From IMG/VR virus record IMGVR_UViG_3300007515_000005: a stretch of 64,000 nt of DNA; one strand, written 5' to 3'. The notes under the pieces were generated by a model that was given only the letters and a program-made list of their open reading frames with translations, was not told the DNA's origin and ran no database searches. Shown one piece after another: positions 18,212 to 53,626 of this stretch. How positions within the stretch are numbered: position 1 is the first letter of the stretch; each line of letters opens with the position of its first letter. The translations under genes and the position numbers were made by a program. The stretch is from an uncultured virus (IMG/VR IMGVR_UViG_3300007515_000005) (taxonomy: Duplodnaviria; Heunggongvirae; Uroviricota; Caudoviricetes; Demerecviridae).

Positions 18212-18970
18212 TTATAAAATTGTTTTTAGGTTTGTTATTATTTGAACACCCCGTTCTCGGGCTGCTTGTGTTTTTGCGGATTCAATTCCGCTTTCGTTTA
18301 CTAAGATGGTTACATCTTTTGTTAAACTATTTTTGACAAGGTAGCCCATTTTTTCTAATACTTCTTTTGCGGCTGCCTTTGTTCTATAGCTTTTTAGTTT
18401 TCCTGTAATACAGACAATCCCTTTTGTTTGTTCTGTTTTTTCTTGAACTGTAGTTTTCCAACTAAAAGGTAATCTATCGTACCCGTCTGTCCATTCTTCG
18501 TAAAACCAATCTAGTAAGTTATCTGTTGCTTTGGGGCCTAGTCCTGCTTCACTACATACTTGCTCGTTCAACTCTAAAAGCGAGTTAACCTTTTCACATA
18601 CTTTTTGAGAAGCCGTAGTCCCAATTAACTTTATCGAGAAAGCTGGTAATAGGTCTACTAAGTCCACTCTCTTACTAGCTTGAATTTCTCTGTGCAGTTT
18701 AACTGCCAATTTCTCGGATTGAAGTGCGTCTATCATCATTTCAAGAGGCAGCTCGTATAAATCAAAGAATGTTGTAATCTTTAACTTCTCTACAGTTCTA
18801 GGGCCGAGTCCCTTAATTTTGAGTGTCTTTGCAAAGTGTTCAATCTTTTTTGATGTCTTTCCAGAACAAGCTGGATTATTACAAAAAAGCTGGTCTTTCT
18901 CCCAAATCAATGTCGTACTACAAGTAGGACAATGTGTTGGGGGTTTTATCGTTTGCAATTCTTCTCTCAT
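18212..18970 (-). CDS. NAD-dependent DNA ligase subunit B (zinc finger, HhH, BRCT)
   Basis: PTHCPTC...CNNPAC, IKGLGPRTVEKL and VCITGKL; has its own promoter, so the tracked start at 19009 is too far upstream. Confidence 0.9.
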   Translation of the reverse strand: MREELQTIKPPTHCPTCSTTLIWEKDQLFCNNPACSGKTSKKIEHFAKTLKIKGLGPRTVEKLKITTFFDLYELPLEMMIDALQSEKLAVKLHREIQASKRVDLVDLLPAFSIKLIGTTASQKVCEKVNSLLELNEQVCSEAGLGPKATDNLLDWFYEEWTDGYDRLPFSWKTTVQEKTEQTKGIVCITGKLKSYRTKAAAKEVLEKMGYLVKNSLTKDVTILVNESGIESAKTQAARERGVQIITNLKTIL

Positions 18971-19010
18971 TTTTTCACTATATATATTATAACAAATTTG
19001 AGATGCCATG

Positions 19011-19446: not shown

Positions 19447-20400
19447 TCAATCTGCTCTCCTTACTATTCTTGGGATTATTTCTCCACTTCTTATTACTTC
19501 TACTTGACAACCTATCTCTAGACCTAACCCTTCAATATGTGCCATATTATGTAGAGTTGCTCTACTTACCATAGCATCATCAATCTCTACAGGTTCTAGA
19601 ATAGCTACTGGAGCGACTACTCCTGACTTTCCTACATTCCATAGAACATCTACTAAGGTTGTTATAACTCCTTTTTGCCTTCGTTTAAGAGCATAAGCTC
19701 CTTTAGGGTGTCGTGAAGTGTACCCCATTTTCTCAAAATCTTCATAGTTATCTACTCTGAATACTAACCCATCTTGTGGGTATTCATTCCAATCTGCATC
19801 TAATACTGTGCTAAGCCCTAAGGCATTTTTTAACACAGACATAGCTTCTGAATGACTCCGAGTTAAATGGGGTTCTGCATTGTATGCAATAAAATGAAGG
19901 TCTCTAGTTTGGAATTCTTCTACATCTTTCAGATTAAGTGCTCCAGCAGCATAGTTTCTTGAGTTCTTAATAGTTTTTGGAGCGACTATTTCCCCTGTTA
20001 TTTGTAATACTTTTGGAAGTGTATGAAAACTGTGTCTATTCGGTACTAAATGTTTTACTAAATCCGTAACATCTAGTCCCTTCTTTCCATCTCCTCTTGT
20101 TAAAACTTTATGTAGGTTTCCCTCTAAATAAGTTAAAGCCACCGCTGCGCCGTCCAATTTAGGACTAACAATTACGGGTTTTTTATATAATTTAAAGGGG
20201 TCTTTTTCGTTTAATTCATTATCAAAGATTTTCTGTAATGAATACATACGAAATGTGTGGGGAAATCTGCCATCAGCACTTCCGACTTCTTCAAAGTTAT
20301 GCAACTCTGCAAGTCTATCAAATTCTTCATCTGACATAAATGGTTTACCATTATAATATGCCATTGCTGCTCGCCTTAGTAATGCTTTTACATTTTCCAT
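19447..20400 (-). CDS. NAD-dependent DNA ligase subunit A (adenylation + OB fold)
   Basis: Motifs SPKLDG, TRGDG, GEIV, RNYAAG, DGLV, RATLHN and RSGEIIP. Confidence 0.94.
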   Translation of the reverse strand: MENVKALLRRAAMAYYNGKPFMSDEEFDRLAELHNFEEVGSADGRFPHTFRMYSLQKIFDNELNEKDPFKLYKKPVIVSPKLDGAAVALTYLEGNLHKVLTRGDGKKGLDVTDLVKHLVPNRHSFHTLPKVLQITGEIVAPKTIKNSRNYAAGALNLKDVEEFQTRDLHFIAYNAEPHLTRSHSEAMSVLKNALGLSTVLDADWNEYPQDGLVFRVDNYEDFEKMGYTSRHPKGAYALKRRQKGVITTLVDVLWNVGKSGVVAPVAILEPVEIDDAMVSRATLHNMAHIEGLGLEIGCQVEVIRSGEIIPRIVRRAD

Positions 20401-28554: not shown

Positions 28555-29133
28555 TTAGTCATATTTCTTTTCCCACTTCTCATTAGGTCTAAAATACTTC
28601 TCTGCTGTTTCTCTCAACCTATCTGGGCCTGCTAAAATTTCTTTTTTAGTTACTGGTTTTCTTTTATATTGATATAGGCCAGGTCCTATCTTTATTTCTA
28701 CGACTTCTTCCTCAGTTGTTTTATTTACAGGCTTTCTAATAAAGCCTCCACCCTCTAGTTTAGATATTTTCCATTCTACATCTTCCTTAGGCACTTCTCT
28801 TTTCCAATAGCCATCTGTATAATCAGCTTCCTGCTGCTTAGCTGCTTCAATATCATCACTTTCATCATGCTCTGTGCTTTCCCACAGCGGCTGTTCTCTA
28901 ATTTTTCTTCGTTCATCTACTGCTTTTCTCAAGCTCTCTCTACTTTCTTCTTTCACAATCCATTCTTTTAAATCAAGTAGATACCATTTTAGTACTCTAG
29001 CTTGTCTTCTATGAAACTTGTCATTTACAAACGAGTTATGGTAATCAATGATATGAAGTATCAACGCTACAGCGTCTTGAAAAGGTTGTCTAACTTTTGT
29101 ACTAAAGTCTCTTTTAATTTTACTTTCTTTCAT
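28555..29133 (-). CDS. Hypothetical protein
   Basis: 192-aa charged ORF. Confidence 0.6.
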   Translation of the reverse strand: MKESKIKRDFSTKVRQPFQDAVALILHIIDYHNSFVNDKFHRRQARVLKWYLLDLKEWIVKEESRESLRKAVDERRKIREQPLWESTEHDESDDIEAAKQQEADYTDGYWKREVPKEDVEWKISKLEGGGFIRKPVNKTTEEEVVEIKIGPGLYQYKRKPVTKKEILAGPDRLRETAEKYFRPNEKWEKKYD

Positions 29134-29137
29134 TTTC

Positions 29138-29341
29138 CTACTTAGTATGTCGCGGCAATTTTACTTCTACAAACCACTCATGCTGCCGCTTCACGGGGTT
29201 GTATTTCCTTAGTCTTAATTTTCTCTGCTCAGAAATCATTTTAGCTGATTTCTCAGCTGGATAAGCATATGTATAACAACTTCTGCTTTCTCCTTCAGGT
29301 ATAAGATTTACCTTTTGCTTTTTTCCTTTTTTTCTTGCCAT
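29138..29341 (-). CDS. rpmG: Ribosomal protein bL33 homolog, zinc-independent type
   Basis: KLRLRKYNPVKRQHEWFVEVK matches the L33 C-terminal signature; strong SD AAGGAG. Confidence 0.82.
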   Translation of the reverse strand: MARKKGKKQKVNLIPEGESRSCYTYAYPAEKSAKMISEQRKLRLRKYNPVKRQHEWFVEVKLPRHTK

Positions 29342-29360
29342 GTCTCTCCTTTTTTAAATC

Positions 29361-29435
29361 TGGCGGTCTAACGGAGAATTGAACTCCGACTTCAAGCGTG
29401 ACAAGCTTGCGTGTTAACCATTACACTATTAGACC
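29361..29435 (-). tRNA. tRNA-Asp(GUC)
   Basis: Reverse complement GGTCTAATAGTGTAATGG...CAAGCTTGTCACGCTTG...GTTCAATTC...TTAGACCGCCA. Confidence 0.93.
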
Positions 29436-29441
29436 ATGTTT

Positions 29442-29515
29442 TGGAGCGGGATAGGAGAATCGAACTCCTGTTCTCAGCTTGGAAGGCTGTGGTAATACCA
29501 TTATACTAATCCCGC
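29442..29515 (-). tRNA. tRNA-Gly(UCC)
   Basis: Reverse complement GCGGGATTAGTATAATGG...CAGCCTTCCAAGCTG...GTTCGATTC...TCCCGCTCCA. Confidence 0.93.
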
Positions 29516-29691
29516 AAATGTTCCACTATAATAATGCCATATAGGTACCATACTTATATAAAATAATATGAAGCCTAGAGATATCCAATCTCTTCTTAGC
29601 CATATAAACCAAAAGAGAACTACTAGTATAGCGAATACAATATCGGCAATCAGAACATTAGTATAATCAACTGTCCAAACTAGCTGTTCCT

Positions 29692-29910
29692 TCACCTTTT
29701 CACCATTCTACCATTCCATAATCTCTCATGCCAATAGTATAAAACAAGTTTTGTTAAAACTTCTACACTAGCTATAGAGCCTGCAAATACTAAATTGCCT
29801 GTTATAAAAAAGCTCAATACAAATGTATCTGTTGTTGCTAATACTCTCCAAGTCATTGTTTTGAAAAAACTTCTCTTTCTACTATTAAATTTTCTACTCA
29901 TGTCTACCAT
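29692..29910 (-). CDS. DUF2061-like small membrane protein
   Basis: RSFFKTMTWRVLATTDT...KLVLYYWHERLW. Confidence 0.8.
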   Translation of the reverse strand: MVDMSRKFNSRKRSFFKTMTWRVLATTDTFVLSFFITGNLVFAGSIASVEVLTKLVLYYWHERLWNGRMVKR

Positions 29911-30305
29911 TTCTCCATTGGTTTTTTATTCGGGTCTGCATAATCATGTGGTAATGATATGCGATAAGGGTTATGCCCTTTTCCAACCCACTTAAAATGA
30001 CGAGAAACCATAAAAGGACTTATTTCGTATGCATAATCACATACAGCTAAATCATCTCCTAATACGCCTCCGTCACAATACTTATCTATTTCATCTTCGT
30101 TATTTGCTGACAAATACTGAATTTTTCCAAATTTGTCAATCACTTTAGCGAAAACATGAAATGTTTTTTTATTTTTTGTACACAAACTACTTTCCCTGAA
30201 GTAAGTCGGCACAATCTTTTTCTCCGCTTCTTTTAGAGTTCTTTCAATCATTCCTTTCATGAACTCGCCTTCAGGGTCTATAGTCATGTTATAGCCCCCA
30301 CACAC
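29904..30305 (-). CDS. Hypothetical protein
   Basis: 133-aa ORF within the operon. Confidence 0.55.
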   Translation of the reverse strand: MCGGYNMTIDPEGEFMKGMIERTLKEAEKKIVPTYFRESSLCTKNKKTFHVFAKVIDKFGKIQYLSANNEDEIDKYCDGGVLGDDLAVCDYAYEISPFMVSRHFKWVGKGHNPYRISLPHDYADPNKKPMEKW

Positions 30306-30604
30306 ATCTGTAGATGTTTTAAGTCTTGTTTAGGGGATTTCTCTAACCCTGCCAATCTACTATACTCTGTATCTAAAAGTTTAGCAATATCCAATATAAT
30401 TTCTGCTTTAGTCATTGGAATTTCGCCTGTTTTAGTTCTGTAGATAGCTTTTTGATACACACCTTCTCTCGAAAGTTTGCCAATTATAGATTTTATACTC
30501 TTATTTAATGTTTGAGCAAGTTCATCTACTGTATCTCTATTTGGCTGTGCAGTATATTTATTAACCATATACTCAACTTGCTCGTCTGTATAGTTTGCTG
30601 CCAC
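30284..30604 (-). CDS. T5 A2-like DNA-binding protein, paralog of 34115-34429
   Basis: NYTDEQV...KSIKSIIGKLSREGVY...TKTGE...KAEII aligns by eye with 34115-34429. Confidence 0.7.
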   Translation of the reverse strand: MAANYTDEQVEYMVNKYTAQPNRDTVDELAQTLNKSIKSIIGKLSREGVYQKAIYRTKTGEIPMTKAEIILDIAKLLDTEYSRLAGLEKSPKQDLKHLQMCVGAIT

Positions 30605-30678
30605 TATAATACTCCTATCATTATAATAATAAAGATCGCCGCTAATACTAGCATTAGTCGCGGGTCATTATCATACAT

Positions 30679-30903
30679 TTACTTATAATATAGGTTTAAT
30701 CCCAAAAAGGCTTCTCTATCGCCACTTATTTCATTACCTATATTTATTTTAGCGTTACCACTTGAGCTAGCAATTAGGGTAGTTTTACCACTAGCGCTAG
30801 GCCCAATATCCTTGCTGGTATCTATCTTAATTGTTAGCATACCTGCATCATCAACGAAATATTCTAGGCTTTCGTTTTTACCTATTTTTTCAAATTCTTC
30901 CAC
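30679..30903 (-). CDS. Conserved small hypothetical protein
   Basis: LTIKIDTSKDIGPSASGKTTLIASSSGN. Confidence 0.6.
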   Translation of the reverse strand: MEEFEKIGKNESLEYFVDDAGMLTIKIDTSKDIGPSASGKTTLIASSSGNAKINIGNEISGDREAFLGLNLYYK

Positions 30904-32877
30904 TAATCTTCTCCTTTATCGTCTGGGTTAAAATCTAAATCAAAATCGAAGTCGAAATCAAAGTCAGACTCAAAATCTGGCTCAAAATCTACAACTTCCT
31001 CCTTCTCTGGTTCTACTAGCTTCCACAGAGCCGCTAGTTCTTTTACTAATTTTCCGTATTCATCTAAATTTTTAGCTAGAGTTACATTTAAAAGGTCTAT
31101 GTCCGATTTAATATAATCATTCTCGATTTCTACTTCTCTTAACCTAGCTTGCTTCATTTCAATACGCTGTTCTACATTTGGAGATTTTGGAAATTTTACT
31201 ACATTATTTGCCATGATATTCCTCCACAGGCAGACTCCATTCAATATACATAGGCCCTAGCTCTAAATCTTGTTTTCTAGCTATACCTGCCATCACTTCA
31301 AATGCTCTCTCCTCAAATTCTTCTTTAGACGCTGCGTTTAGTATAATTTCTTTACTTAGTGAGAAATCAGCTACTGCTTCTCCAACCCACTTTCGTTTTC
31401 CTACTGTTAGCCCGTCTACTAATGTTTCACCTGTCTTTTGGCTAATTTCTATTCTTTCTCTTGCCACTACCATAACCTCCATTTTTTCTTTTCTGATGTT
31501 TTTTCGAGAACAGCTATTTCTTCTTGTAGGTTAGCTACTTCTTTCTGTTTCTTACTTATAGCTATTTCGTATTTTTTAGACTCATGCACTTGTTCCCACC
31601 ATTTTCGCACTAAAATCCATGCGTCTTCTGGCTCCAGAGGTTCATAGCCCTTTGTTATATACTCTAGCAAATCTTGAACTTTTAACTCGCCGTTTACTAC
31701 TTCAAAACTTAAACCGAAATCATCAAAGCCGCAATCTAGTAGAGTTTCTCTTTCTAAAATCTCACAAACATCAGCTGGAATAGTTAATGTTTGTTCTGTA
31801 TATTCTACTGCCACTACTTTACTCCTTTTAAGATTACTAAAATTACTATGCCAAATATTGCACTAACAATCGATGTTGCTAGTATAGCTGGTAATATAAT
31901 TATTTCCATATTAGTTTTACTCCTCTCTTTGCGAGTTCTTTTAATGCTTTAGCCCTCATTTTAGGCTTAGCATTATGTTTGTTTAAATAAGCTATTAGTT
32001 CCTCTTTTGAAACCATAGCCATCGTTCTAAATTTTTCATAAGTTTTAGCTGACTGACCCCATCTGCCTGATTCAACTACTTTATGTCTTTTTTCCCACAT
32101 TTCTGCCATGTGCTTTTCTCCAATGTCTGTCTTGCAACTCACTTTCGAGCGCAAATATTAATAATTTAGCAAATGCTTCATCATTTGCCACCTGTGATAT
32201 GAGCTTTTTAAAATACTCTGTATCTTCTGCTGAGTTCTTTAGTTTTACTACTAAATCCCTTAAGCTTATGTTTTCTTCCCAATCCATCTATTTTCCTTAT
32301 ACTATAATAGCATACTATAACAATAATCATGTATAATAGCTCATTAAATAATTTTTTTACTTCGTTTTTATACTTAGTTTTACTACTTGCTTTCATTCGT
32401 ATCCTTCTTCGCTTGTAGTTTATCTACTAAGTCTATTTCGAAATAGCTTGTTGTTTCGCTTTGCCTTGCGTTAAAGTGTATTGGCCTTCCGTCTTCCCAT
32501 GTGCCATTTAAAATATCGCTAACATGCGGGTCATAATACGCAAGAACAGGCTCGGGTTTTTCCTCCGCCTGTTCTCCTTTTCTTGCCCTGTGAAACCAAG
32601 TCATTCTTCTTCGCCATTGTCGCATTCGGTTATTCCCTCTCCTTCTTGCCAACTATGTTCTCCTTACGCCAGGAGCATAAACATACTCCTCTTTTTTGTC
32701 TAATGCAGCGTCAATTACTTCCTTGCTATCGATTACTACTGCGTTTGTTCCGTCCCAAAAGCCTATGTCTTTTCTTCTTTTGATTTCTTTTCTGGCAGCT
32801 TTTCCCCAACTATCTTGCCTATCTGAAAGCACAGCTAATTGTTTGTCTGTTGTGCCAATTAATAATAATTTTGTCAT
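30903..32877 (-). CDS. Run of small hypothetical early ORFs (about 30903-31214, 31204-31482, 31467-31814, 31900-32109, 32081-32287, 32383-32652, 32653-32877)
   Basis: Tightly packed minus-strand ORFs with SD-like sequences; no recognisable families; some starts revised from the track. Confidence 0.55.
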
Positions 32878-32881
32878 TCCG

Positions 32882-33031
32882 CTACTCCTGTTCGTCTGTT
32901 CTGTTAATAAATTTTCTTTTGCGATAATACTTTTTCCTGTCGCGAAATCTTCTTCCACGCTGGAACCTTGAAGCAAATTTTGCTACTATGTTCCGATTTT
33001 TTCTCTTCGCATTTTTTGTTGATTTTTTCAT
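32882..33031 (-). CDS. Small, very basic leaderless protein (49 aa), ArfA-like pattern
   Basis: MKKSTKNAKRKNRNIVAKFASRFQRGRRFRDRKKYYRKRKFINRTDEQE*; ATG 7 nt after TATAAT of the promoter at 33039-33067. Confidence 0.6.
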   Translation of the reverse strand: MKKSTKNAKRKNRNIVAKFASRFQRGRRFRDRKKYYRKRKFINRTDEQE

Positions 33032-33088
33032 TGTTTATATTATATCACGCCATAACAAAATTGTCAAGAAGTATTTTATGCAAGGCAT

Positions 33089-33116
33089 AAAAAAACCCTG
33101 CCGCTGGGCAGGGTTT
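33089..33116 (-). terminator. Intrinsic terminator closing the large ncRNA unit
   Basis: AAACCCTGCC-CAGC-GGCAGGGTTT followed by a T-run on the minus strand. Confidence 0.85.
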
Positions 33117-33971
33117 GAAAAATAACTTCTAAGCTGTTTGCCTTTTTCTAGAGTAATGAGCCGTAGGAGCCCGTTTATAGCGATGTCCTTTAAACCGCCG
33201 ACCTACTTCCATTAGCCCTCCTTCGTTGCTGCATGAGGTATAGCCCATCAATGCCATGTCCCCCCAACCTATCTCTCAGGTTTGTGCCAGTAGGTTCTCT
33301 GCAAAGGCTCGTTACCTTCGCTCCACTACTAGAGTACCATATTAGGTCGCCTAGATACATGGTGGCTCCTGCTTCCTTTTCGGTATTCCACCGACCGCGG
33401 AGCTGCTCCACATTCTGCTACCCTTAAAATTGGGTAGGCTTTCCATTCTCTCGCTCATGGAAGCGTCTATAGTTCTAGCACTAGAGAGAGCTGAAGCAAC
33501 TACTAAGTGGGGTGCTTCACCGCACTCCGAGATGTTTTCGCTGCATCTACGGGTCAATCACGCCTAGTTTCTTTGGTATCGCAGACAAACTAGGACACTG
33601 CGTGCTTGAACATTCTTATCTATATTTTAAGTGCCGTTGCGGTGGTTGAAGCAATTGCATACACTTTGCACTATATTGTTTCGCAACTCATTGCGTGCTC
33701 ACTCAGTATTTATTCTTGCCCGCTGAATTTAAAAGAGCCTTTTCGGACAATACAAGAGCAGTGGGCAGCTGATATTATCGTACCATCGCTGGTTGCTTTT
33801 CTCCGCCCCTAGTTAGTTTGCTTACTTAGTAAGGCTTACTACTAACGCCTGACTTGCCATCTCTTAGAAGCGTGAGGACTGCGAAGAATGAGTTGTTTCG
33901 AGCCCTCCAGAAATCCGATGTCTTATGTTGTACAGTAATCGGCTTTCCATGCTTCTTTTTGTAATTTCTAT
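33117..33971 (-). ncRNA. Candidate large structured non-coding RNA of about 850 nt, family unassigned
   Basis: Bounded by a consensus promoter (33978-34006) and a terminator; no credible ORF; GC visibly above the flanks; more than 12 local and long-range helices. Confidence 0.75.
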
Positions 33972-33977
33972 TATTAT

Positions 33978-34006
33978 ATTATATATCGCTATCAATAAAA
34001 AGTCAA
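33978..34006 (-). promoter_or_regulatory. Sigma70 promoter for the large ncRNA
   Basis: TTGACT-17-TATAAT. Confidence 0.85.
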
Positions 34007-34114
34007 GAAATTTTTTAAGCAACACTTAAAATAATTTATTTTGCGTTGCTTAAAAAAGTTCCTCGCTAGTTAGTGCTGATATATTCTATCCTAGCGAGAT
34101 TACTTTTTTGGACT

Positions 34115-34429
34115 TTAGCTTAGGTGGTTTACTAAATTCTGTAAATCTACTTTGCTTGCCTTTACCAAAGTTGGGAACTCTGCATCGAGTTTAGCATTAA
34201 TCTGAGCAACAAGTTCTGCTTTGCGAACAACTGGCTCACCTGATTTGGTTACTCTTGGTTGTGCGACATAAACTCCTTCTCTAGATAGCTTCGCAATTAT
34301 GCTTCTGACGGATTTCCCGAATTTGCCAGCTAGTAAGTCAACAGTTTCTCTGTTTGGATTAGCTGTGTAAAGTTTGGTCATTTCTTCGACCATTTCGTCT
34401 GTGTAATTTTTAGCTCTTTCTGCTACCAT
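34115..34429 (-). CDS. T5 A2-like DNA-binding / DNA-transfer protein
   Basis: NYTDEMV...SVRSIIAKLSREGVY...VRKAELVAQI...TLVKASKVDL resembles T5 A2 as recalled; has its own promoter. Confidence 0.7.
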   Translation of the reverse strand: MVAERAKNYTDEMVEEMTKLYTANPNRETVDLLAGKFGKSVRSIIAKLSREGVYVAQPRVTKSGEPVVRKAELVAQINAKLDAEFPTLVKASKVDLQNLVNHLS

Positions 34430-34523
34430 TATTTTCTCCGTTAAAGATGCGTTTTCACGCTTGTTAATTTAATTTCTTATTCTTATATTATGACACGCTA
34501 TTAAGGAAAAGTCAAGAAAAATC

Positions 34524-34706
34524 TTATGCGATATCCTTTAATTCTTGTGTTGGTGTGTAATACTTTTCTAGCTCTTTTATTTTTAGCTCTTGTGTTGCTT
34601 CCCAACCTATAGCTAAGATGCAAACAGTTAAGAACGCTAGCATTGAATAGAGGACATTCCACCTTTTCCAATGGTCGCGTAGTTTGCATTTTTGTAAATT
34701 TGTCAT
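34524..34706 (-). CDS. Small membrane protein (60 aa), leaderless
   Basis: MTNLQKCKLRDHWKRWNVLYSMLAFLTVCILAIGW...; ATG 6 nt after TATAAT. Confidence 0.6.
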   Translation of the reverse strand: MTNLQKCKLRDHWKRWNVLYSMLAFLTVCILAIGWEATQELKIKELEKYYTPTQELKDIA

Positions 34707-35248
34707 TCTTTTATTATATATGGCGTGCAATAGAAAGTCAAGAACTATTTTAAACTTAGCATAAAAAAATAACGCAAACGAATTCTCGGGGGCGGGACGC
34801 GAAATGTCGAACTTCGTTCGAAAATCTCGCAAAAAACGCAAAAATCTTGGCGGGTGTGTGGAAATCTCCCTAAATCTTCGCATAACCCCGCCCAAGTTTT
34901 TTCTTGACAAATCCTACCCCGCTATGGTATAATACCACGGGTGGGGAGGGGTTATTTTAGAAAAGACTAGGCGAAAGCGGCGTGGCGAAACGCTTTCACA
35001 TTTGTACTGAGTTTTAGCACTTATAGTTTTCGCACTGGCGCAGGCGAAGCCTGCTTGTAATGCCCATTCTACCTCGGTTTCCCTTTAATTCTCCCCTTTC
35101 GCTTCAATTTTCCCCCTTTCGCCTCAATTTTCTCCCTATTTTTTGAAAAAAGCATCAATTTTCCCCCCCCCGCCCCGGTTTTTTCCATATTTTCAATTAT
35201 TTTAGGCGGCACCCTTGAAATTTCAAAAAGCGACCCCATATATATTAT

Positions 35249-35398
35249 ATGGAACAAAAAATAACAACCCAAAAACGCCCTAGCAAGAAAGTTCTTCTTC
35301 AAGCTATCGCTGAGAAAGGTGTTGACAGAAAAATCGTTGACTCTTTAGCAAGAGCTAACATTGATGCCCTCACCTTCGTGAACGAATTAATAGTGTAG
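35249..35398 (+). CDS. 49-aa mini-protein like the A2 C-terminal half (copy 1)
   Basis: MEQKITTQKRPSKKVLLQAIAEKGVDRKIVDSLARANIDALTFVNELIV*. Confidence 0.7.
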   Translation: MEQKITTQKRPSKKVLLQAIAEKGVDRKIVDSLARANIDALTFVNELIV

Positions 35399-35961
35399 TT
35401 TTATGAACCCCGCCACAGGTTTATCCCTCAATGTGGCGACCCCTGCGGGGCTGACAGGTTAAACAGCCAAGCATAAGCGAAAAAAGCGACAGATGTTGTA
35501 ATAACTGTGGGAAAAGGTGAAAAGCAACATTTGTTGCTTTTTTTTATTTTAAAAAAACCCTTGACAAGCGAGGGTTTTTATGTTATAATCGGCGCTGCGC
35601 GCCTCCCTTCGGGAACACTTCATTTTTGCACTTAGTTTAGCCACTTACGCTCGAGGCCTTTAGTTTTACCACTTAGTTTTAGCACTTTGGCGCAGGGCAC
35701 GCCTGCGTCTATTTTTCTCCCCGCCATAGCTTCCCTCTTTCTCTCTAGGTCGTTTCAAAAAATCGCCTTTATCCTTGCCTCGTTTTTCTTTTCAAGGCTT
35801 GGTTTAAAATACAGGAAGTATTTTAAACCATGCGGGCGAATTTGTCAAGTCTTTTCGAAAACCCATGCGACACATTCTGTCGCAGGCAGAAGCCGAGCCA
35901 AAAAAAATTTTTTCTTCGCTTCGGGCTTCTGCGACAGTCCCTTTTTCGTGAAAGCTAAATT

Positions 35962-36114
35962 TTAGCTTCTGGCGTTAATTGCCATATCACGAATAACAAT
36001 CAAATTTGTGATGTTCGTTCTCTCAAGAGAAGGAAAATCGAACAAATCGGTGTTCTCCGCAATCTCACGAATAAGTGCCTTTTTGGAAGGTCTTTTTTCA
36101 TTCGAATTCAACAT
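35962..36114 (-). CDS. 50-aa mini-protein like the A2 C-terminal half (copy 2), leaderless
   Basis: MLNSNEKRPSKKALIREIAENTDLFDFPSLERTNITNLIVIRDMAINARS*. Confidence 0.75.
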   Translation of the reverse strand: MLNSNEKRPSKKALIREIAENTDLFDFPSLERTNITNLIVIRDMAINARS

Positions 36115-36332
36115 GAAAGGGATTATAGCAAAAAAGCGTTCACAAGTCAAGAAAAAAGTCAAGAAAAAAGTGAAAAAAAAAGTTGAAAAAAAGTTGAAAA
36201 AAAGCTTGACATTTGGGCGGGGGTGGTTTAAAATTACGTAGTAATTTTAAACAACCCTCCCAGAAAGACCCCCCTCCCAAAAACCAAAAAATCCCATTGG
36301 TCAATTTTTGACCAGTGCCGAATCGGCGCGCC

Positions 36333-36353
36333 AAATGAGAATCATTCTCATTT
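36333..36353. promoter_or_regulatory. Fur-box-like palindrome 1
   Basis: AAATGAGAAT-C-ATTCTCATTT, a perfect 10-1-10 palindrome. Confidence 0.75.
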
Positions 36354-36386
36354 AGCCGATTGGTTAAAAATTAACCAGTACAAATT

Positions 36387-36983
36387 TTAACCAATTCCAT
36401 TTATCAAGATTTTTAAAAGTTCCTCTTTGCTAGTATCTTTTTTAACAACATTCCAAGAAGGACAAGCTAGAAACATTTTTTCTTTTGCGTCTGTAATGTC
36501 ATTAAAGTATTTTATAGCAAGTGCGTCAGTCTTGCTGTATTTGTAAGGCTTGTTTATTTTTCTCAATTTTAAAATTTGCTCTTGCCTGTCTTTGTCTAAA
36601 GAAATCCAATTTTTAATTATTGTAATTCCGTTTTCCTCTTGTTTGGTTTCCCATGCTTTAACCTTTCTCATGTGGTTAATGTATTGTCTAGCTGTGCAAT
36701 AATTATAAACAGGGTGTACCCATGAACGAGTGTGCCAAGACCTATCAAAAATAACAAGCTCATTTTTTCTTGGCATAATTCTTTCATAATCTGAAAGCCA
36801 TTTTTTCATTCTTGTTTGTGTGGGCATTCCTTGATGGCGATATGTAAAAGGAATATCATAATTAATTAAGAGTTTGACAAAACCGCCTTTTCCTGAAGCG
36901 TCTCTACCCTCTAAAACAAAAGCGATTTTTTGCCCTTTTAAATTTGCTAGTTTTTTGTGAAGTTGATTTATTAATTTTTGCAT
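36387..36983 (-). CDS. ppk2: Polyphosphate kinase 2 family protein, compact
   Basis: Walker A EGRDASGKGG and Walker B IFDRSW; start revised to MQKLINQ, which overlaps the stop of a 34-aa upstream ORF (TAATG). Confidence 0.85.
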   Translation of the reverse strand: MQKLINQLHKKLANLKGQKIAFVLEGRDASGKGGFVKLLINYDIPFTYRHQGMPTQTRMKKWLSDYERIMPRKNELVIFDRSWHTRSWVHPVYNYCTARQYINHMRKVKAWETKQEENGITIIKNWISLDKDRQEQILKLRKINKPYKYSKTDALAIKYFNDITDAKEKMFLACPSWNVVKKDTSKEELLKILINGIG

Positions 36984-37092
36984 TATTTTATATAAAGTTT
37001 TTTTGTTGAGTGTTTGCCCTTTCCCCACATTGAATTTTTAATATCGTGCATTGTTGGGATTGGGTTTTTTCTTTTTTCGTTTTTCATAGTTC

Positions 37093-37545
37093 CTATTTTA
37101 ATCTAAGTGCGTTGTTATGTAAAGTTTTAATTCCTAGTTTTTGCAATTCTTTTCTAATGATTTTGTTATCGTCAAACATGATTTTTTCCATGCCTTGAAA
37201 TTGTTTGAGGTTGAAAAGTCTTTTTAATTTTGCGGTTTTTAATTCTGCGTCATTTCTGAAATCGCCCTCTTTCCTAGAAAGAATAATTTTTGCGTTTAAG
37301 CCATGATGAGCCAAAAAATCAAAATCCGCTTTTTTCATGTTTCTAGCTGTGCAAATCCAAACATTTTTATTTGCTTTAATTAATGCTTTCATAAATTTAG
37401 CAAGGGGTAAAAGTTCATCTTTAAAAATGTTTTCTCTAGTTGAATTTTTAATCCATTTTTCAAGGTCTATTTTTCCTTCAGCATTTCCAGAAAATCTGTG
37501 GCTTGAGTCTATCGTTGTTGCGTCTAAATCAAAAATATAAATCAT
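37093..37545 (-). CDS. HAD-superfamily phosphatase (PNKP-phosphatase / Dmp-like)
   Basis: IFDLDATT, ICTAR, a conserved Lys and MFDDN. Confidence 0.85.
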   Translation of the reverse strand: MIYIFDLDATTIDSSHRFSGNAEGKIDLEKWIKNSTRENIFKDELLPLAKFMKALIKANKNVWICTARNMKKADFDFLAHHGLNAKIILSRKEGDFRNDAELKTAKLKRLFNLKQFQGMEKIMFDDNKIIRKELQKLGIKTLHNNALRLK

Positions 37546-37546
37546 T

Positions 37547-37669
37547 TTAAAAACCCCTTATTACAAGGTAAATAATTCCGCCAATAACAAGAATGTCAGC
37601 GGAGATTGAGTAGATAACATATGCTTTAAAAAGCAATCCTAGTATTTTTTGTAGTTCTTTGTTTTTCAT
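37547..37669 (-). CDS. 40-aa single-TM peptide (copy A), leaderless
   Basis: MKNKELQKILGLLFKAYVIYSISADILVIGGIIYLVIRGF*; after TTGACA-17-TAAAAT. Confidence 0.75.
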   Translation of the reverse strand: MKNKELQKILGLLFKAYVIYSISADILVIGGIIYLVIRGF

Positions 37670-37748
37670 GTGTCCAATTTTACTAAATTTTGGGGTGTCT
37701 GTCAATAGACCAAGCGAAAATAATTGATATTTATTTTTTCGAAAAAGC

Positions 37749-37813
37749 TTGACAAGGCGGGGGCGGGTGTGGTAAAATCGGCGCCCCAAATGAGAACCAT
37801 TCTCATTTGGGGG
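37749..37813 (+). promoter_or_regulatory. Promoter followed by Fur-box-like palindrome 2
   Basis: TTGACA-18-TAAAAT-CGGCGCCCC-AAATGAGAACCATTCTCATTT-GGGG. Confidence 0.7.
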
Positions 37814-37845
37814 GCATTCACAAAATTTATATTGAGCCATAAATT

Positions 37846-38286
37846 TTAGTGATAGGCTTTCTTTCCTTTTAGGAAGGCGGGCATTTTATATATTGAGCCG
37901 TCTCTTTTCCTTTCCCATTGCTCTGGCATTGGGGCAGGATTAGATTTAAAGTATTTAAATCCGAGAGCAATATATTTCTTTAGGTGTTTAATTCCTTTGG
38001 GGGAATAGAACCATTCCGAGCCACCATTAGATTTAAATTTACCCATACCTTGCCACCTCTTTTGATAACCCGCTTTCATTAGATAGTGTTGTATTTGCCA
38101 TTCGATAGTATAAGCGTCATGCCTATTTGGTATCTCTATCGTATGCAATACCTGTAGCCTATGGTCATCTCCAAATTCCTTGCGTATAGATGTCTCTATA
38201 TCATATCGTCTATGGTGTATGTTATTGGCTACCCCTATCTTATGATAAGGTTTCTTATTGCATTTCATTATGTATAGTGTAGTCAT
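37846..38286 (-). CDS. GIY-YIG/T5orf172-like nuclease-domain protein
   Basis: LYIM...HKIGVA...R...E.QI...GGSEWF. Confidence 0.7.
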   Translation of the reverse strand: MTTLYIMKCNKKPYHKIGVANNIHHRRYDIETSIRKEFGDDHRLQVLHTIEIPNRHDAYTIEWQIQHYLMKAGYQKRWQGMGKFKSNGGSEWFYSPKGIKHLKKYIALGFKYFKSNPAPMPEQWERKRDGSIYKMPAFLKGKKAYH

Positions 38287-38504
38287 TAGTCTGTTAATGT
38301 CCTTATGATTGTGGCTACCCCTATGCCTACCCCTACCCCTACAACAAGAAGCATATAAGTATCAGCATAATTAAATGCGTTGAAAGCAACATCGTCATAG
38401 CAATAAGGTGTTTTCTCTACCAGTTGTCTTGCTGACCATATGCCGAATGATGTAAGAGCAATGGTTAGAGCCGAGCCGATTGTTAGTATTATTTTGTTTA
38501 ACAT
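38286..38504 (-). CDS. Small 2-TM membrane protein
   Basis: Two hydrophobic helices; SD AAGGA. Confidence 0.6.
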   Translation of the reverse strand: MLNKIILTIGSALTIALTSFGIWSARQLVEKTPYCYDDVAFNAFNYADTYMLLVVGVGVGIGVATIIRTLTD

Positions 38505-38555
38505 TTGTTTTCCTTTTTAAAAATGGGGGGTGAGTAATGGCACCCCCCTAACCAT

Positions 38556-38708
38556 TTAACCTCTGGCTTTTACAACCATGTCACGAATGACAACGAGGTT
38601 ATGAATGTTAGTTCTTTCCAGAGAACCAAAATCAAAGAGGTCAGAATTTTCTGCAATCTCTCTGATAAGGATTTTCTTGGAAGGTCTAACAGTTTTTTCA
38701 TTAACCAT
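38556..38708 (-). CDS. 50-aa mini-protein like the A2 C-terminal half (copy 3)
   Basis: MVNEKTVRPSKKILIREIAENSDLFDFGSLERTNIHNLVVIRDMVVKARG*; SD AAGGAGG. Confidence 0.8.
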   Translation of the reverse strand: MVNEKTVRPSKKILIREIAENSDLFDFGSLERTNIHNLVVIRDMVVKARG

Positions 38709-38721
38709 TTTTTCCTCCTTT

Positions 38722-38844
38722 TTAAAGTCCATTAATAATTAAGTAGATGATACCACCTACCACCAACACATCAGCTGATATTGAATAAACAATATAAGCC
38801 TTGAATAAATATCCGAGTAATTTTTGTAGTTCTTTGTTTTTCAT
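38722..38844 (-). CDS. 40-aa single-TM peptide (copy B), leaderless
   Basis: MKNKELQKLLGYLFKAYIVYSISADVLVVGGIIYLIINGL*. Confidence 0.75.
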   Translation of the reverse strand: MKNKELQKLLGYLFKAYIVYSISADVLVVGGIIYLIINGL

Positions 38845-38929
38845 ATCTCCGATTATACCAGAAGGGGCGAGGATTACAACCCCTAAAATGAAATTAATTT
38901 CTGTATGCGTCAATATGTGTCGCAGGTCT

Positions 38930-38950
38930 AAATGATAATCATTCTCATTT
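38930..38950. promoter_or_regulatory. Fur-box-like palindrome 3
   Basis: AAATGATAATCATTCTCATTT. Confidence 0.75.
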
Positions 38951-38991
38951 GGGGCCCCTTCGGGTGCTGTACAATTTTTAACCAGTGCGGT

Positions 38992-39110
38992 GGTGTGTTA
39001 GTATAGTAACACACCGGCCCTTCGGGTGTGCGGGTGTGTTAGTGAAGTAACACACCGGCTCTTTATAATTTTAATACCTATAATTTTCATACCTGAGTTT
39101 TAATACCTAT
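38992..39110. repeat. Two 24-bp palindromes plus three TTTT(A/C)ATACCT direct repeats; candidate terminus/packaging region
   Basis: GGTGTGTTA-N6-TAACACACC at 38992-39015 and 39033-39056, just upstream of terS. Confidence 0.6.
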
Positions 39111-51577: not shown

Positions 51578-53626
51578 ATGGAGAAAATTTTTCATTGGAC
51601 TAACACTTTTAAAACTCTAGGCGAGGACGAAGACGGTAGTGTTAAAATTTCAGGTTTAGCATCTACTAATGCTTTAGATCGTACTGGAGATGTTATTAAC
51701 CATGATGCATGGACAAAATCAAATGGATTAGAGAATTTTAAACAAAATCCTATAATTTTGTTCAATCATGACTATAATAAGCCGATTGGTCGCGCTACTT
51801 CTATGGAAGTGAGCGAACATGGTTTAGAGGTGGGAGCAAAAATCTCTAAATCAGCAGGTGAAATAAAAGATTTAATAAAAGACGGCGTTCTTGGAGCCTT
51901 TTCCGTTGGTTTCAGAGTCAAGGATGCTGATTATAATGATGAAACTGACGGATATAAGATAAAAGACGCCGAACTTTTTGAGGTATCAGTCGTTAGTGTT
52001 CCAGCTAACCAGACTGCTATGTTTTCTATTGCGAAATCTTTCGATTCTCAAGAGGAATACGAGGAGTTTAAGAAAACTTTTATATCTAATAACATGGCTA
52101 CACCAACAGACACAGTTAATATTGATGAAGTTGGTACGCCACAAGCCACGGATAAAACCGTTTCACAGGAGAAACCTATGTCTAAGGACACAAAAACTCC
52201 AGAAGCTGGGTCAGTAGACTTGAAAGCATATGCAGAAGAAATTGCGAAAGCAACTGCTGCAAAGATTGCTATGCAACAAGCTGAGCAAAAAGCTAAGGAA
52301 CAATCTGATGCAGAAGAAGCTGCTGAGCTAGAAGCTCAAACTAAAGCAGCTAAAGAAGCTGAAGAAGAAAAAGTGAAGACAATAGTAGAAGTTGGCATGT
52401 CTGGAGCTGAAAGGCTTATGGAAGATGTTGAAAAACGTGTTTCTGAAAAGCATGAAGACCTCGAAAAAGTTGTCAACGAACTTAGAACAGAGCTTACTGA
52501 GAAAAAAGACGAAATCGAAGCAATTCGTGAGTCTAAAAGAATTTTTGGTGACAGAAACGACTCTGACTGGAAGAAAGCCTTCGAGAGCGATGTAAATGAT
52601 GCATGGACTCTAGGGCTAGCTACAGGAAGGGGTTGGGATACTGATTATGCGAAAGATGTAATGCAAAAAGTTAACGCTCATTCGGGTGTTGGCGTTTCGT
52701 CTGCAGATTTCGAGCAAACTGTATCTACAAATGTGGAAAGAGATATCCAGTTGCAGTTAGTACTTGCGCCTCTCTTTAGAGAGATCACAATGTCTGCTGC
52801 TACACAAATCATACCTATCTTACCAGATGCTGGTTATGCTGAATTCGCTTCAGCTCAAACAGCTAGTGGATCATCTCCACATGGTAACTTAGAAGAAAGA
52901 GGAGACACTTATGGCTCACCTTTCGCTGGTGTTGATTTGACTGAGAGAACTCTTTCAACCAAAAAACTTATTTCACAATCTTACTTAGGTAATGAAACTG
53001 AAGAAGATGCGATTCTACCAATCCTACCTTTAATTAGGGAGTCGGTTGTTAGATCACATGCAAGAGCCGTAGAAAATGCGTTACTATTAGGTAACAACGC
53101 TGATGGTGCCTTTGGTACTTCAGGAGCATCTTTCGATGGTGTTTGGCATCTAGCTGAAGCTGATAGTGATGTAACACAATCAGCAACTGCATTTGCATCT
53201 GACTCAATGACAGCACTTAAGCTATTAGCACTAAGAAAGAATATGGGTAAATATGGTATTAACCCATCTGATGTAGTGTACATAGTATCTTCTACAGCTT
53301 ATTACAATCTGTTAGAAGATGCTGAGTTCCAAGATGTGAACTTAGTTGGCGATGTAGCAACAAAGCTAAGAGGAGAAATCGGAAGCGTATTTGGATCTAA
53401 AGTCCTAGTATGTGACGAGTTCCCAACTGCGGCAGTAAATATGCCTGCAGCTATAGCAGTGTATCCTAGAAACTATGTTGTACCTAGATTAAGAGGTATG
53501 ACTATAGAGTCTGACTACGAAGTTGCTAATCAAAGAAGAGTTTTGGTTGCTTCACAAAGAATTGGCTTCACCGACATGATCGATGGCGCTACTTCTAAAT
53601 GGGCATATCAATATAAAGGCTCTTAA
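51578..53626 (+). CDS. Prohead protease fused to scaffold domain and HK97-fold major capsid protein
   Basis: Protease motifs LFNHD, FSVGF, LFEVSVVSVPAN; coiled-coil delta domain; capsid region ending QRRVLVASQRIGF. Confidence 0.92.
   Translation: MEKIFHWTNTFKTLGEDEDGSVKISGLASTNALDRTGDVINHDAWTKSNGLENFKQNPIILFNHDYNKPIGRATSMEVSEHGLEVGAKISKSAGEIKDLIKDGVLGAFSVGFRVKDADYNDETDGYKIKDAELFEVSVVSVPANQTAMFSIAKSFDSQEEYEEFKKTFISNNMATPTDTVNIDEVGTPQATDKTVSQEKPMSKDTKTPEAGSVDLKAYAEEIAKATAAKIAMQQAEQKAKEQSDAEEAAELEAQTKAAKEAEEEKVKTIVEVGMSGAERLMEDVEKRVSEKHEDLEKVVNELRTELTEKKDEIEAIRESKRIFGDRNDSDWKKAFESDVNDAWTLGLATGRGWDTDYAKDVMQKVNAHSGVGVSSADFEQTVSTNVERDIQLQLVLAPLFREITMSAATQIIPILPDAGYAEFASAQTASGSSPHGNLEERGDTYGSPFAGVDLTERTLSTKKLISQSYLGNETEEDAILPILPLIRESVVRSHARAVENALLLGNNADGAFGTSGASFDGVWHLAEADSDVTQSATAFASDSMTALKLLALRKNMGKYGINPSDVVYIVSSTAYYNLLEDAEFQDVNLVGDVATKLRGEIGSVFGSKVLVCDEFPTAAVNMPAAIAVYPRNYVVPRLRGMTIESDYEVANQRRVLVASQRIGFTDMIDGATSKWAYQYKGS

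What the first reader, a model, noticed from the sequence alone, without database searches (positions are those of the whole stretch)
33089..34006. Candidate new large (about 850 nt), highly structured phage ncRNA with its own promoter and terminator
Seen: a minus-strand unit from a TTGACT-17-TATAAT promoter (33978-34006) to a strong terminator (33089-33116), in an otherwise gene-dense genome. It has no credible SD-led ORF and is visibly GC-richer than its flanks. Long-range complementary pairs (plus coordinates): 33126-33133/33863-33870 (8 bp, 3' end to 5' region), 33684-33692/33887-33895 (9 bp, pseudoknot-like), 33165-33171/33364-33370, 33158-33162/33306-33310 and 33201-33206/33290-33295. 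Local hairpins: 33266-70/33278-82, 33336-40/33359-63, 33418-23/33432-37, 33441-46/33457-62, 33492-98/33513-19 and 33563-70/33587-94. Known: giant phage-associated RNAs of this size class exist (GOLLD, ROOL). I see no tmRNA, RNase P or group I/II intron hallmarks and cannot assign a family. Inference: an early-expressed multi-domain RNA (scaffold, decoy or ribozyme) and the best candidate here for an undescribed system, possibly acting with the neighbouring A2-like and basic proteins.
Basis: partly seen in the sequence, partly recalled or inferred. Interest (0 to 1): 0.9.

Follow-up and report, generated by a model that had tools for sequence, protein, structure and literature searches.

The report
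New large structured marine-phage RNA
This gene-free stretch of an uncultured ocean phage related to T5 is a gene for a folded RNA of about 880 bases, found in RNA surveys of seawater, that belongs to an uncatalogued family built around a conserved knotted core and whose job is still unknown.

Summary
The unit is real. A TTGACT-17-TATAAT promoter (34006-33978) and an intrinsic terminator (33116-33093) bracket about 880 nt on the minus strand. That stretch is GC-rich (0.45-0.51 against 0.30-0.35 in the flanks) and has no conserved reading frame. No Rfam 15 family matches it, and four literature searches found no description.

The same promoter-RNA-terminator slot follows the same 104-aa gene in related marine viral contigs. 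A 140-nt core recurs in 70 distinct sequences: a hypervariable helix, then CGYGAUUGA, then a 3-4 bp helix enclosing the hairpin GAUA-CAnCGAnAA-UAUC. The core shows strong compensatory change (85% of cells paired against 65% in shuffles, 0 of 500 shuffles as high). A covariance model built without the window finds window 33496-33637 at E 1.4e-5.

The rest of the RNA is a mosaic of modules shared with only some relatives. Contigs from four marine RNA libraries (three studies) cover it.

His long-range pairs exist but are no more than chance gives.

Function is unknown. My best guess is an abundant, early, trans-acting scaffold or decoy RNA. The closest analogues, not relatives, are GOLLD and ROOL.

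The parts
33978..34006 (-). Sigma-70-type promoter TTGACT-17-TATAAT. The transcription start is inferred near 33971.
   Evidence: 11 of 12 matches. 37 of 38 non-redundant related loci carry an 11-12 of 12 promoter within 430 nt after the same upstream gene.
33089..33971 (-). Predicted RNA of about 880 nt, running from the inferred start to the end of the terminator.
   Evidence: Contigs of four RNA libraries lie on 33111-33854.
33496..33637 (-). Conserved core domain of the family.
   Evidence: Covariance model R1 was built from 18 other sequences. It scores 34.5 bits here, E 1.4e-5 in 386 kb. The only other window match (51611-51757) has E 0.075.
33563..33602 (-). H-type pseudoknot. S1 is CGCAG (33602-33598) with CUGCG (33584-33580). 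Helix Pa is CCUAGUUU (33594-33587) with AAACUAGG (33570-33563).
   Evidence: Read. Pa is the family's hypervariable helix immediately 5' of CGYGAUUGA: all 5 of its pairs show changes on both sides. The S1 helix that covaries in typical members (97% of cells paired, all 4 pairs with changes on both sides) has a counterpart of the same topology here, which I matched by position; the model's alignment does not place the window's S1 in those columns. The window's S1 is kept in L055 and L193 but without variation.
33554..33562 (-). Junction strand CGUGAUUGA, nearly invariant in the family.
   Evidence: CG.GA.TGA is invariant in the 24 aligned cores.
33527..33553 (-). Helix Ha (CCG 33552-33550 with CGG 33529-33527) enclosing hairpin Hb (GAUG 33547-33544, loop CAGCGAAAA, CAUC 33534-33531).
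   Evidence: Hb is 99.7% paired; its 4th pair is A-U in 57, G-C in 13 and U-A in 2 of 73 rows with letters (74 distinct rows); the window has G-C. Ha covaries (GGG/CCU, GCG/CGC, CCG/CGG, GAG/CUC) except in one subgroup.
33418..33519 (-). Three local hairpins: 33519-13/33498-92, 33462-57/33446-41 and 33437-32/33423-18.
   Evidence: L193 keeps them, with compensatory changes in two of the three (for example UUCCAU/AUGGAA becomes CCUCAC/GUGAGA); 33418-23/33432-37 is identical in L193, L055 and the window (6 of 6 pairs) and is kept without change.
33294..33323 (-). Second shared module, GAGCGAAGG ... GCAGAGAAC.
   Evidence: Shared only with the 'G1' subgroup (GGGCGAAGG ... UAGAGAAC) at a similar distance from the core.
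33086..33116 (-). Intrinsic terminator: stem-loop plus U run.
   Evidence: It is followed at 33067-33039 by a separate 12 of 12 promoter for the next genes.

Best explanation
Window 33089-33971 (minus strand) is an independent gene for a non-coding RNA of about 880 nt in an uncultured marine T5-like phage. Host RNA polymerase transcribes it from a near-consensus sigma-70 promoter and stops at its own intrinsic terminator. The RNA belongs to a previously uncatalogued family, found once per genome in the one complete relative I checked. The family has a conserved, pseudoknotted core of about 140 nt surrounded by folded modules that differ between relatives and appear to be exchanged by recombination. 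That much is shown. How it works is inference. My most likely reading (odds about 45%) is that it acts in trans as a stable, abundant RNA made from the start of infection. The invariant unpaired residues of the core (CGYGAUUGA and the CAnCGAnAA loop) would form the site that binds a partner or builds a higher-order RNA or RNP architecture. The variable modules would tune or diversify that interaction, in host take-over or counter-defence.
For: Gene anatomy: promoter, terminator, raised GC, no conserved frame.

Conserved slot: among loci fetched through the upstream 104-aa gene, 37 of 38 non-redundant ones show a strong promoter followed by 0.5-1.25 kb of ORF-poor sequence, and 30 of 38 show a terminator by my crude finder.

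Independent retrieval by an RNA motif alone: 29 of 32 viral-contig matches lie between two strong promoters. 82 of 119 metagenome matches carry the extended motif. The 104-aa gene lies upstream in 72 of the 114 loci examined, of which 74 have more than 900 nt upstream.

Covariation in the core: on a MAFFT alignment of 18 sequences, 83.6% of cells pair against 66.1% in shuffles (0 of 500 as high), 13 of 17 pairs change on both sides, and partners slid by 1-3 columns pair at 27-49%. On 74 distinct rows, 85.0% pair against 64.6%, with covariation score 0.282 against 0.084 (0 of 500).

The window is detected by a model that did not contain it.

The window's own subtype (window, L055, L193): 123 predicted pairs, 19 with changes on both sides.

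Full length in a sister subgroup (12 sequences): 172 pairs in 36 helices, 88.5% paired against 81.7% in shuffles, 63 pairs against 34 with double changes (0 of 500), slid controls 36-40%.

Strand: G-U cells outnumber A-C cells 167:65 and 51:26.

RNA libraries: 13 of 20 listed runs are on record as RNA. Contigs from four RNA runs of three studies cover 33111-33854. In run X2, six pieces identical to the window show that this phage is present, and contigs on the RNA have word depth 193 and 775 against 3-23 on neighbouring genes.

Phage-specific: of 44 pattern matches in 185,579 species genomes, only one short MAG contig passes the model.
Against: No experiment or raw-read evidence fixes the 5' end, the 3' end, the strand or the integrity of the transcript. 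The laid runs are contigs, whose depth is one figure per contig and is a poor measure of expression, and the runs were chosen because they hold this stretch.

The window's own subtype has only three informative sequences, one of them 92% identical. So most of its 880 nt, including the 5' 280 nt and the 3' 150 nt, has no comparative support.

The structures were predicted from the same alignments on which they were counted, and the alignment was fitted to two of the four helices. Both inflate agreement.

The models R1 and R2 detect the core in only about 18 of the 38 loci linked to the upstream gene. In the rest I see a look-alike only by eye.

Nothing ties the RNA to any partner. The function statement is inference from anatomy and from analogy with other abundant phage RNAs.
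Confidence: 0.8

Rival explanations
1. The transcript is not one machine. It is a chain of separately folding modules, a stable-RNA operon, that host nucleases cut into several small RNAs. The GAUUGA core is just the most widespread module.
For: The RNA is a mosaic. L005 has flanks 84-89% identical to the window, yet its interior of about 900 nt does not align except at the core. The GRGCGAAGG module is shared only with one subgroup. A 50-nt block 98% identical between L006 and L038 lies 7 nt after a shared block in one and about 294 nt after it in the other. RNA-library contigs break away from the window at recurring points (33252, 33415, 33523, 33583, 33640, 33696), as if variants swap blocks there.
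Against: There is a single promoter and a single terminator per unit in nearly all relatives. The predicted consensus folds include long-range helices with changes on both sides that join distant blocks, for example columns 374-396 with 1447-1455 and columns 49-55 with 295-301. No tRNA-like or RNase P substrate module was found. Variable peripheral domains are also normal for single large RNAs.
Confidence: 0.2
2. The conserved pseudoknotted core is a catalytic centre, a new self-cleaving or other ribozyme, and the large RNA is its natural context.
For: The core combines nearly invariant unpaired residues with helices whose sequences vary freely, and it has a pseudoknot. From my own knowledge, that pattern is typical of ribozyme and aptamer cores.
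Against: No match to any ribozyme family in Rfam. There is no evidence of a cleavage site, and contigs of RNA libraries run through the core (records 15, 27 and 28).
Confidence: 0.1
3. It is a cis-acting element: a long leader or attenuator of the downstream genes, or a transcript that primes replication at a nearby origin.
For: It sits in a control region dense in strong promoters, with 11 of the window's 22 sites of 11-12 of 12 lying in 33-38 kb. Iteron-like and tandem repeats lie 1-3 kb upstream.
Against: A strong terminator ends the unit, and the next genes have their own 12 of 12 promoter. The repeats lie outside the RNA. Compensatory base changes show selection on RNA structure over the whole length in relatives. 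No complementarity to the rest of the window exceeds chance: the longest match is 14 nt and shuffles give 11-14 nt.
Confidence: 0.05
4. It encodes one or more small proteins.
For: A 73-aa ORF (33190-33411) with an internal AGGAG-5 nt-ATG.
Against: The ATG and the frame are lost in L193. Longest sense ORFs across 27 units equal the shuffled expectation and sit at different places. Paired-column covariation and G-U pairs are not features of coding sequence.
Confidence: 0.02

Closest known systems
GOLLD RNA (large ornate RNA of phages and prophages)
   Same: More than 800 nt, encoded by phages, elaborate multi-helix fold, function unknown. This rests on passages I read in PMC12286853.
   Different: No match to the Rfam model at gathering score or at E up to 10. 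GOLLD often sits near tRNA islands, whereas the nearest tRNA here is 3.6 kb away. This family is known only from one lineage of uncultured marine T5-like phages.
ROOL RNA
   Same: Phage or prophage RNA of roughly 600 nt with several pseudoknots and no known protein partner. It can be as abundant as 16S rRNA in one strain and forms an RNA-only cage (passages of PMC12286853). The RNA here also has a pseudoknot and shows high contig depth in RNA libraries.
   Different: No Rfam match. Whether this RNA oligomerises is untested.
OLE RNA
   Same: Large structured bacterial RNA.
   Different: OLE is a bacterial RNA, according to the passages read. No Rfam match here.
Small stable RNAs co-transcribed with tRNAs in T4 and T5 (recalled from my own knowledge, no call)
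   Same: Abundant phage-made non-coding RNAs in T-odd and T-even phages; modular transcripts processed by host nucleases.
   Different: Those RNAs are about 100-140 nt and lie inside tRNA clusters. Here there is one promoter-to-terminator unit of about 880 nt without tRNAs.
Other uncatalogued large RNAs of marine phages noted by this scan (e1-5900081, e1-7970155, e1-8009400)
   Same: Own promoter and terminator, pseudoknots, marine viral contigs, no Rfam family (these are AI notes and unchecked).
   Different: No shared sequence words with this window. They differ in length and in neighbouring genes.

Membership tests
GOLLD / ROOL / OLE (Rfam models) | Match to the family's covariance model at or near its gathering score | tested here: not met
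   cmscan against all 4227 Rfam 15 families gave only three tRNAs in the 64-kb window. At E up to 10 on 32900-34200 it gave only terminator and AT-hairpin look-alikes far below gathering scores. It gave only tRNAs in 19 related loci. That these three RNAs are Rfam families is stated in PMC12286853.
tmRNA | tRNA-like domain plus tag reading frame | tested here: not met
   ARAGORN found three tRNAs and no tmRNA. No Rfam match.
RNase P RNA; group I and group II introns; known self-cleaving ribozymes | Match to the Rfam models of their conserved cores | tested here: not met
   In addition, the unit is not inserted in a gene; it has its own promoter and terminator.
Riboswitch or cis-regulatory leader | Lies in the 5' untranslated region of the gene it controls, with no promoter in between | tested here: not met
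   A terminator at 33116-33093 is followed by a separate 12 of 12 promoter at 33067-33039.
Protein-coding gene | A reading frame conserved among relatives | tested here: not met
The new family defined here (working name: GAUUGA-core RNA) | A helix of free sequence ending directly before CGYGAUUGA, then a 3-4 bp helix enclosing the hairpin GAYR-CAnCGAnAA-YRUC | tested here: met
   All elements are present at window 33527-33594. Model R1, built without the window, gives 34.5 bits, E 1.4e-5.
The new family defined here | Position: own strong promoter and terminator, directly downstream of the 104-aa helix-turn-helix-like gene | tested here: met
RNA-only homo-oligomeric cage (the way ROOL and GOLLD work) | Self-assembly into an ordered multimer | not testable with these tools
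   Needs native gels, mass photometry or cryo-EM of the transcript.

The most novel reading that the evidence does not exclude
Abundant ocean T5-like phages make, from the first moments of infection, a new class of giant modular RNA. Its universal pseudoknotted core is an active site, either catalytic or a specific binding pocket for a host factor. Its peripheral modules are swapped between phages as cassettes in an arms race with host defences. It would be an RNA counterpart of the diversifying anti-defence proteins, possibly assembling into an RNA-only architecture like ROOL and GOLLD.
Probability: 0.25. Interest if true: 0.9.

Novelty: categorically new. Interest (0 to 1): 0.8.

Why it matters
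Very few classes of large, intricately folded bacterial or phage RNAs are known, and the recent cryo-EM work on GOLLD, ROOL and OLE showed that such RNAs can hold unexpected architectures. Here is another candidate of that size, with three useful properties.

- It already has well over a hundred natural sequence variants (29 viral-contig and 82 metagenome loci that carry the motif, some of them the same contigs, and 70 distinct cores), enough for covariation-guided modelling.
- It has a compact core of about 140 nt with invariant unpaired residues that can be mutated and probed.
- It shows signs of high abundance in ocean RNA surveys.

It comes from a widespread but uncultured lineage of T5-like phages, so it may point to a step of infection that no model phage shows.

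The label 'categorically new' refers to the family: it fits no catalogued RNA family. The loose descriptive bin of large phage RNAs of unknown function already exists. I cannot exclude a description in a journal outside the searched library.

Tried and rejected
- DNA similarity to 50,697 GenBank phage records: no match for the window RNA, for a typical family member, or for the 104-aa protein by tblastn. No cultured carrier or host was found.
- The window's own assembly is not held. The nearest record, G001, overlaps only the last 111 nt at 100% identity.
- Single-sequence folding energy does not separate the sense strand from the antisense strand.
- RNAalifold on the mixed 24-sequence core alignment found only the Hb hairpin, because MAFFT misaligns the helix of free sequence. 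I therefore named the structure myself and re-aligned with a covariance model.
- Upstream 104-aa protein: 0 PHROG families. Weak Pfam IF2_N matches in 10 of 17 homologues, best E 2.9e-4, below the cut-off. Nothing better than E 0.028 in PDB sequences. The AlphaFold model (pLDDT 84.6) shows two three-helix bundles. Foldseek gave no match at E 0.001 or better; the top rows are helix-turn-helix regulators at E 0.18-0.8. It is probably a nucleic-acid-binding protein, and 'A2-like' is not shown.
- The basic 49-aa peptide (DUF7230, 28 bits against a cut-off of 27) is the next gene in only 4 of the 31 loci examined. More often the next gene belongs to the family of the window's 107-aa protein. So it is not a conserved partner by position.
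- Antisense targets in the rest of the window: none above chance.
- Host clue: of 44 pattern matches in species genomes, one short contig (4.4 kb) binned in a Flavobacteriaceae MAG passes the model. Binning of a phage fragment is weak evidence, and the consensus sigma-70 promoters do not fit that phylum well (my own knowledge).
- Parts of 29000-39000 without contig cover in the RNA libraries are not used as evidence. Contigs cannot show transcript ends, strand or level.
- Models R1 and R2 did not detect a core in clusters C (remainder), D and E at the same slot. The look-alike I see in cluster D is unproven.
- Earlier notes of this scan by place and by sequence returned nothing.
- Literature searches returned no description of this RNA.

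Full report
WHAT THE WINDOW IS. The 64-kb window is part of a tailed phage distantly related to T5. PHROG matches include a D5-like regulator, a split NAD-dependent DNA ligase, SbcCD-like nuclease subunits, DnaB-like helicase, primase, DNA polymerase, ribonucleotide reductase, terminase, portal and a protease-capsid fusion. The DNA polymerase is at most 46% identical to those of Proteus, Aeromonas, Vibrio and Providencia T5-like phages. Early and replication genes run leftwards on the minus strand from about 34 kb. Structural genes run rightwards from about 39 kb. Between them lies an ORF-poor, repeat-rich region dense in consensus promoters.

THE OBSERVATION. GC rises to 0.45-0.51 inside the unit, against 0.30-0.35 in the flanks. 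The longest sense ORF is 73 aa. In 27 family units the longest sense ORF (mean 52 aa) equals the shuffled expectation (56 aa) and sits at different places.

All eleven complementary pairs he lists are perfect in the window. As a class, perfect complements of 8 bp or more are not enriched: 7 observed against 4.5 in shuffles, with 20 of 100 shuffles reaching 7. The minimum free energy is unremarkable on either strand. So the single sequence could not have settled the matter.

NOT A KNOWN FAMILY. cmscan against all 4227 Rfam 15 families gave three tRNAs in the window. On the region at E up to 10 it gave only terminator and AT-hairpin look-alikes. In 19 related loci it gave only tRNAs. ARAGORN found no tmRNA. 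blastn found nothing in 50,697 GenBank phage records. Four full-text searches found no description. I saw only listings and abstract openings for those hits, and I read passages of PMC12286853.

RELATIVES AND A CONSERVED SLOT. The 104-aa protein encoded just upstream (34115-34429) has relatives on 44 viral contigs. After duplicates and loci with too little downstream sequence were dropped, 38 remained. In 37 of them an 11-12 of 12 promoter follows the gene within 430 nt. Then come 0.5-1.25 kb with no long sense ORF and raised GC, then (in 30 of 38 by a crude finder) a terminator, and then another perfect promoter.

By blastn the window RNA aligns only to L003/L004 (91.6% identity over its whole length). 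In L005, whose flanks are 84-89% identical to the window, the interior of about 900 nt does not align at all.

THE CORE. Profile searches and inspection exposed one block shared across subgroups. It runs as follows:
- a helix (Pa) whose sequence is different in almost every lineage, ending directly before CGYGAUUGA;
- a 3-4 bp helix (Ha);
- the hairpin Hb (GAUA-CAnCGAnAA-UAUC);
- the return strand of Ha, then AG and a further hairpin.

In the commonest subtype, the 5' strand of Pa lies in the loop of another helix (S1: CUUC/GAAG, CUAC/GUAG, CAUC/GAUG, CUUG/CAAG, CGAG/CUCG, CCUG/CAGG, GGAG/CUCC). This makes an H-type pseudoknot. The window has the same topology: S1 CGCAG/CUGCG, Pa CCUAGUUU/AAACUAGG, Hb GAUG/CAUC.

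A degenerate pattern for the block retrieved 32 viral-contig loci, 29 of them between two strong promoters. This gave 70 distinct 170-nt cores. In 185,579 species genomes the same pattern hit 44 places, and the covariance model accepted only one, a 4.4-kb MAG contig. That serves as a control on the pattern and indicates that the RNA is phage-borne.

COVARIATION. On a plain MAFFT alignment of 18 typical cores, with the structure I named (S1, Pa, Ha, Hb; 17 pairs):
- 83.6% of cells pair, against 66.1% after shuffling partners (0 of 500 as high);
- 13 of 17 pairs show changes on both sides (8.1 expected, 0 of 500);
- sliding the partners by 1-3 columns gives 27-49% paired.

Model R1 built from that alignment found 79 matches at E up to 1 in 94 sources. 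These include window 33496-33637 (34.5 bits, E 1.4e-5), L005 (E 2.6e-5), L013, L036 and L008. The only other window match has E 0.075.

On the resulting alignment (74 distinct rows) 85.0% of cells pair against 64.6%, with covariation score 0.282 against 0.084 (0 of 500). S1 is 96.8% paired and Hb 99.7% paired. This alignment is fitted to Pa and Hb, which favours them. S1 and Ha were not in the model. Ha fails in one subgroup (65.6% paired overall).

A second model, R2, raised the scores of divergent members and added L008 and L036. It still missed clusters C (remainder), D and E at the same slot. In cluster D I see a look-alike core by eye, but it is unproven.

THE WINDOW'S OWN SUBTYPE. Two metagenome fragments, L193 (73% identity over 429 nt) and L171, are of the window's type. 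A consensus fold of window, L055 and L193 has 123 pairs, 19 of them with changes on both sides. The 5' 280 nt and the 3' 150 nt can be compared only with the 92%-identical L055, so their structure is unknown.

WHOLE-LENGTH STRUCTURE AND MOSAICISM. In a sister subgroup (12 full-length units, about 1.0-1.25 kb) the RNAalifold consensus has 172 pairs in 36 helices. Of the cells, 88.5% pair against 81.7% in shuffles. 63 pairs show double changes against 34.4 expected (0 of 500). Slid controls give 36-40%. The structure was derived from the same alignment, which inflates agreement.

Modules are shared patchily. GRGCGAAGG...AGAGAAC is common to the window type and this subgroup only. Blocks occur at different spacings in different members. 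The one complete relative genome examined (105 kb, direct terminal repeats) has one core.

EXPRESSION. Twenty runs hold the stretch or part of it, 13 of them on record as RNA, from 10 studies of seawater. I laid four RNA runs (three studies) on 29000-39000. Their contigs cover 33111-33854.

In run X2, six pieces identical to the window show that the phage itself is present. There, contigs on the RNA have word depths of 193 and 775, against 3-23 on neighbouring genes. The tool warns that contig depth is a poor measure and that the runs were chosen by this stretch. I take this as presence in RNA libraries (shown) and high relative abundance (suggested). Ends and strand are not shown.

The strand is supported by the orientation of promoter and terminator and by G-U over A-C cells (167:65 and 51:26).

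NEIGHBOURS. The 104-aa gene lies upstream in 72 of the 114 motif-retrieved loci, of which 74 have enough upstream sequence. It models as two three-helix bundles with only weak helix-turn-helix-like matches. The next gene is the basic DUF7230 peptide in 4 of 31 loci and usually a member of the window's 107-aa family. All carriers belong to one phage lineage, so this synteny does not by itself show a functional link.

HOW IT MOST LIKELY WORKS. Shown: a separate transcription unit; selection on RNA base pairing; an invariant unpaired core; modular turnover; presence in RNA libraries. Inferred: early, strong transcription by host polymerase (from the promoter type, by analogy with T5 early promoters; my own knowledge) and action in trans.

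I favour a stable scaffold or decoy whose core binds a partner or nucleates a higher-order assembly (about 45%). The alternatives are a processed chain of small RNAs (20%), a ribozyme core (10%), a cis element (5%) and coding sequence (2%). The remainder is unassigned.

COMPARISON AND NOVELTY. It resembles GOLLD and ROOL in size, phage origin, pseudoknots, unknown function and possibly abundance, but it fails their models. I therefore file it as a new family, with two reservations: only open-access literature and Rfam 15 were searched, and other notes of this scan report further uncatalogued large RNAs in marine phages.

Noticed in passing
window 34430-36420: ORF-poor, repeat-rich control region between the early and late gene blocks. 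It holds four tandem 12-nt units AAGTCAAGAAAA (36144-36203); iteron-like copies of CACTTAGTTTTAGCAC followed by GGCGCAGG...CCTGC hairpins (35010-35059, 35623-35711); C-rich repeats (35081-35193); and eight promoters of 11-12 of 12 on both strands. It may be an origin, a packaging or terminal region, or an injection-stop-like region as in T5 (that last comparison is recalled, not tested).
   Followed up: partly
window 34904-35542 (+): A 12 of 12 promoter (34904-34933) and a terminator-like hairpin (35519-35542) bracket about 600 nt of raised GC that hold only 28-aa and 49-aa ORFs. This is a possible second non-coding or small-peptide unit. Low-depth RNA-library contigs lie on 35268-35513.
   Followed up: no
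loci L003-L044: By my count of the table, 32 of 44 related contigs end within 4 kb upstream of the 104-aa gene, 25 of them within 1.5 kb, while most run on for 6 kb downstream. Assemblies seem to break in the repeat-rich region, or a genome end or terminal-repeat boundary lies there.
   Followed up: no
L005 1125-2117 against window 33089-33971: Two phages have 84-89% identical flanks and 83% identical upstream proteins, yet their RNA interiors do not align except at the 140-nt core. This looks like cassette-like replacement of RNA modules.
   Followed up: partly
window 32882-33031 (-): A 49-aa peptide with 21 Lys/Arg that matches DUF7230 just above the cut-off. It has its own 12 of 12 promoter and overlaps the start of the 107-aa ORF (32653-32976).
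   Followed up: partly
window 36387-37028 and 37093-37545 (-): The phage carries a polyphosphate kinase 2 (PPK2) homologue (Pfam E 6.8e-31) next to a polynucleotide-kinase-like gene (phrog_415).
   Followed up: no
window 18212-19009 and 19447-20400 (-): The NAD-dependent DNA ligase is split into two genes, separated by a 121-aa ORF.
   Followed up: no
window 34016-34100 (-): Two hairpins lie between the 104-aa gene and the RNA promoter. The first, with a T run, is the likely terminator of the 104-aa gene. The second is AT-rich and gave the spurious mir-3747 hit in Rfam.
   Followed up: no
RNA-library contigs on window 33250-33700: Contigs from all four runs leave the window sequence at the same points (33252, 33415, 33523, 33583, 33640, 33696). 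This suggests that many mosaic variants of this RNA coexist in seawater.
   Followed up: no
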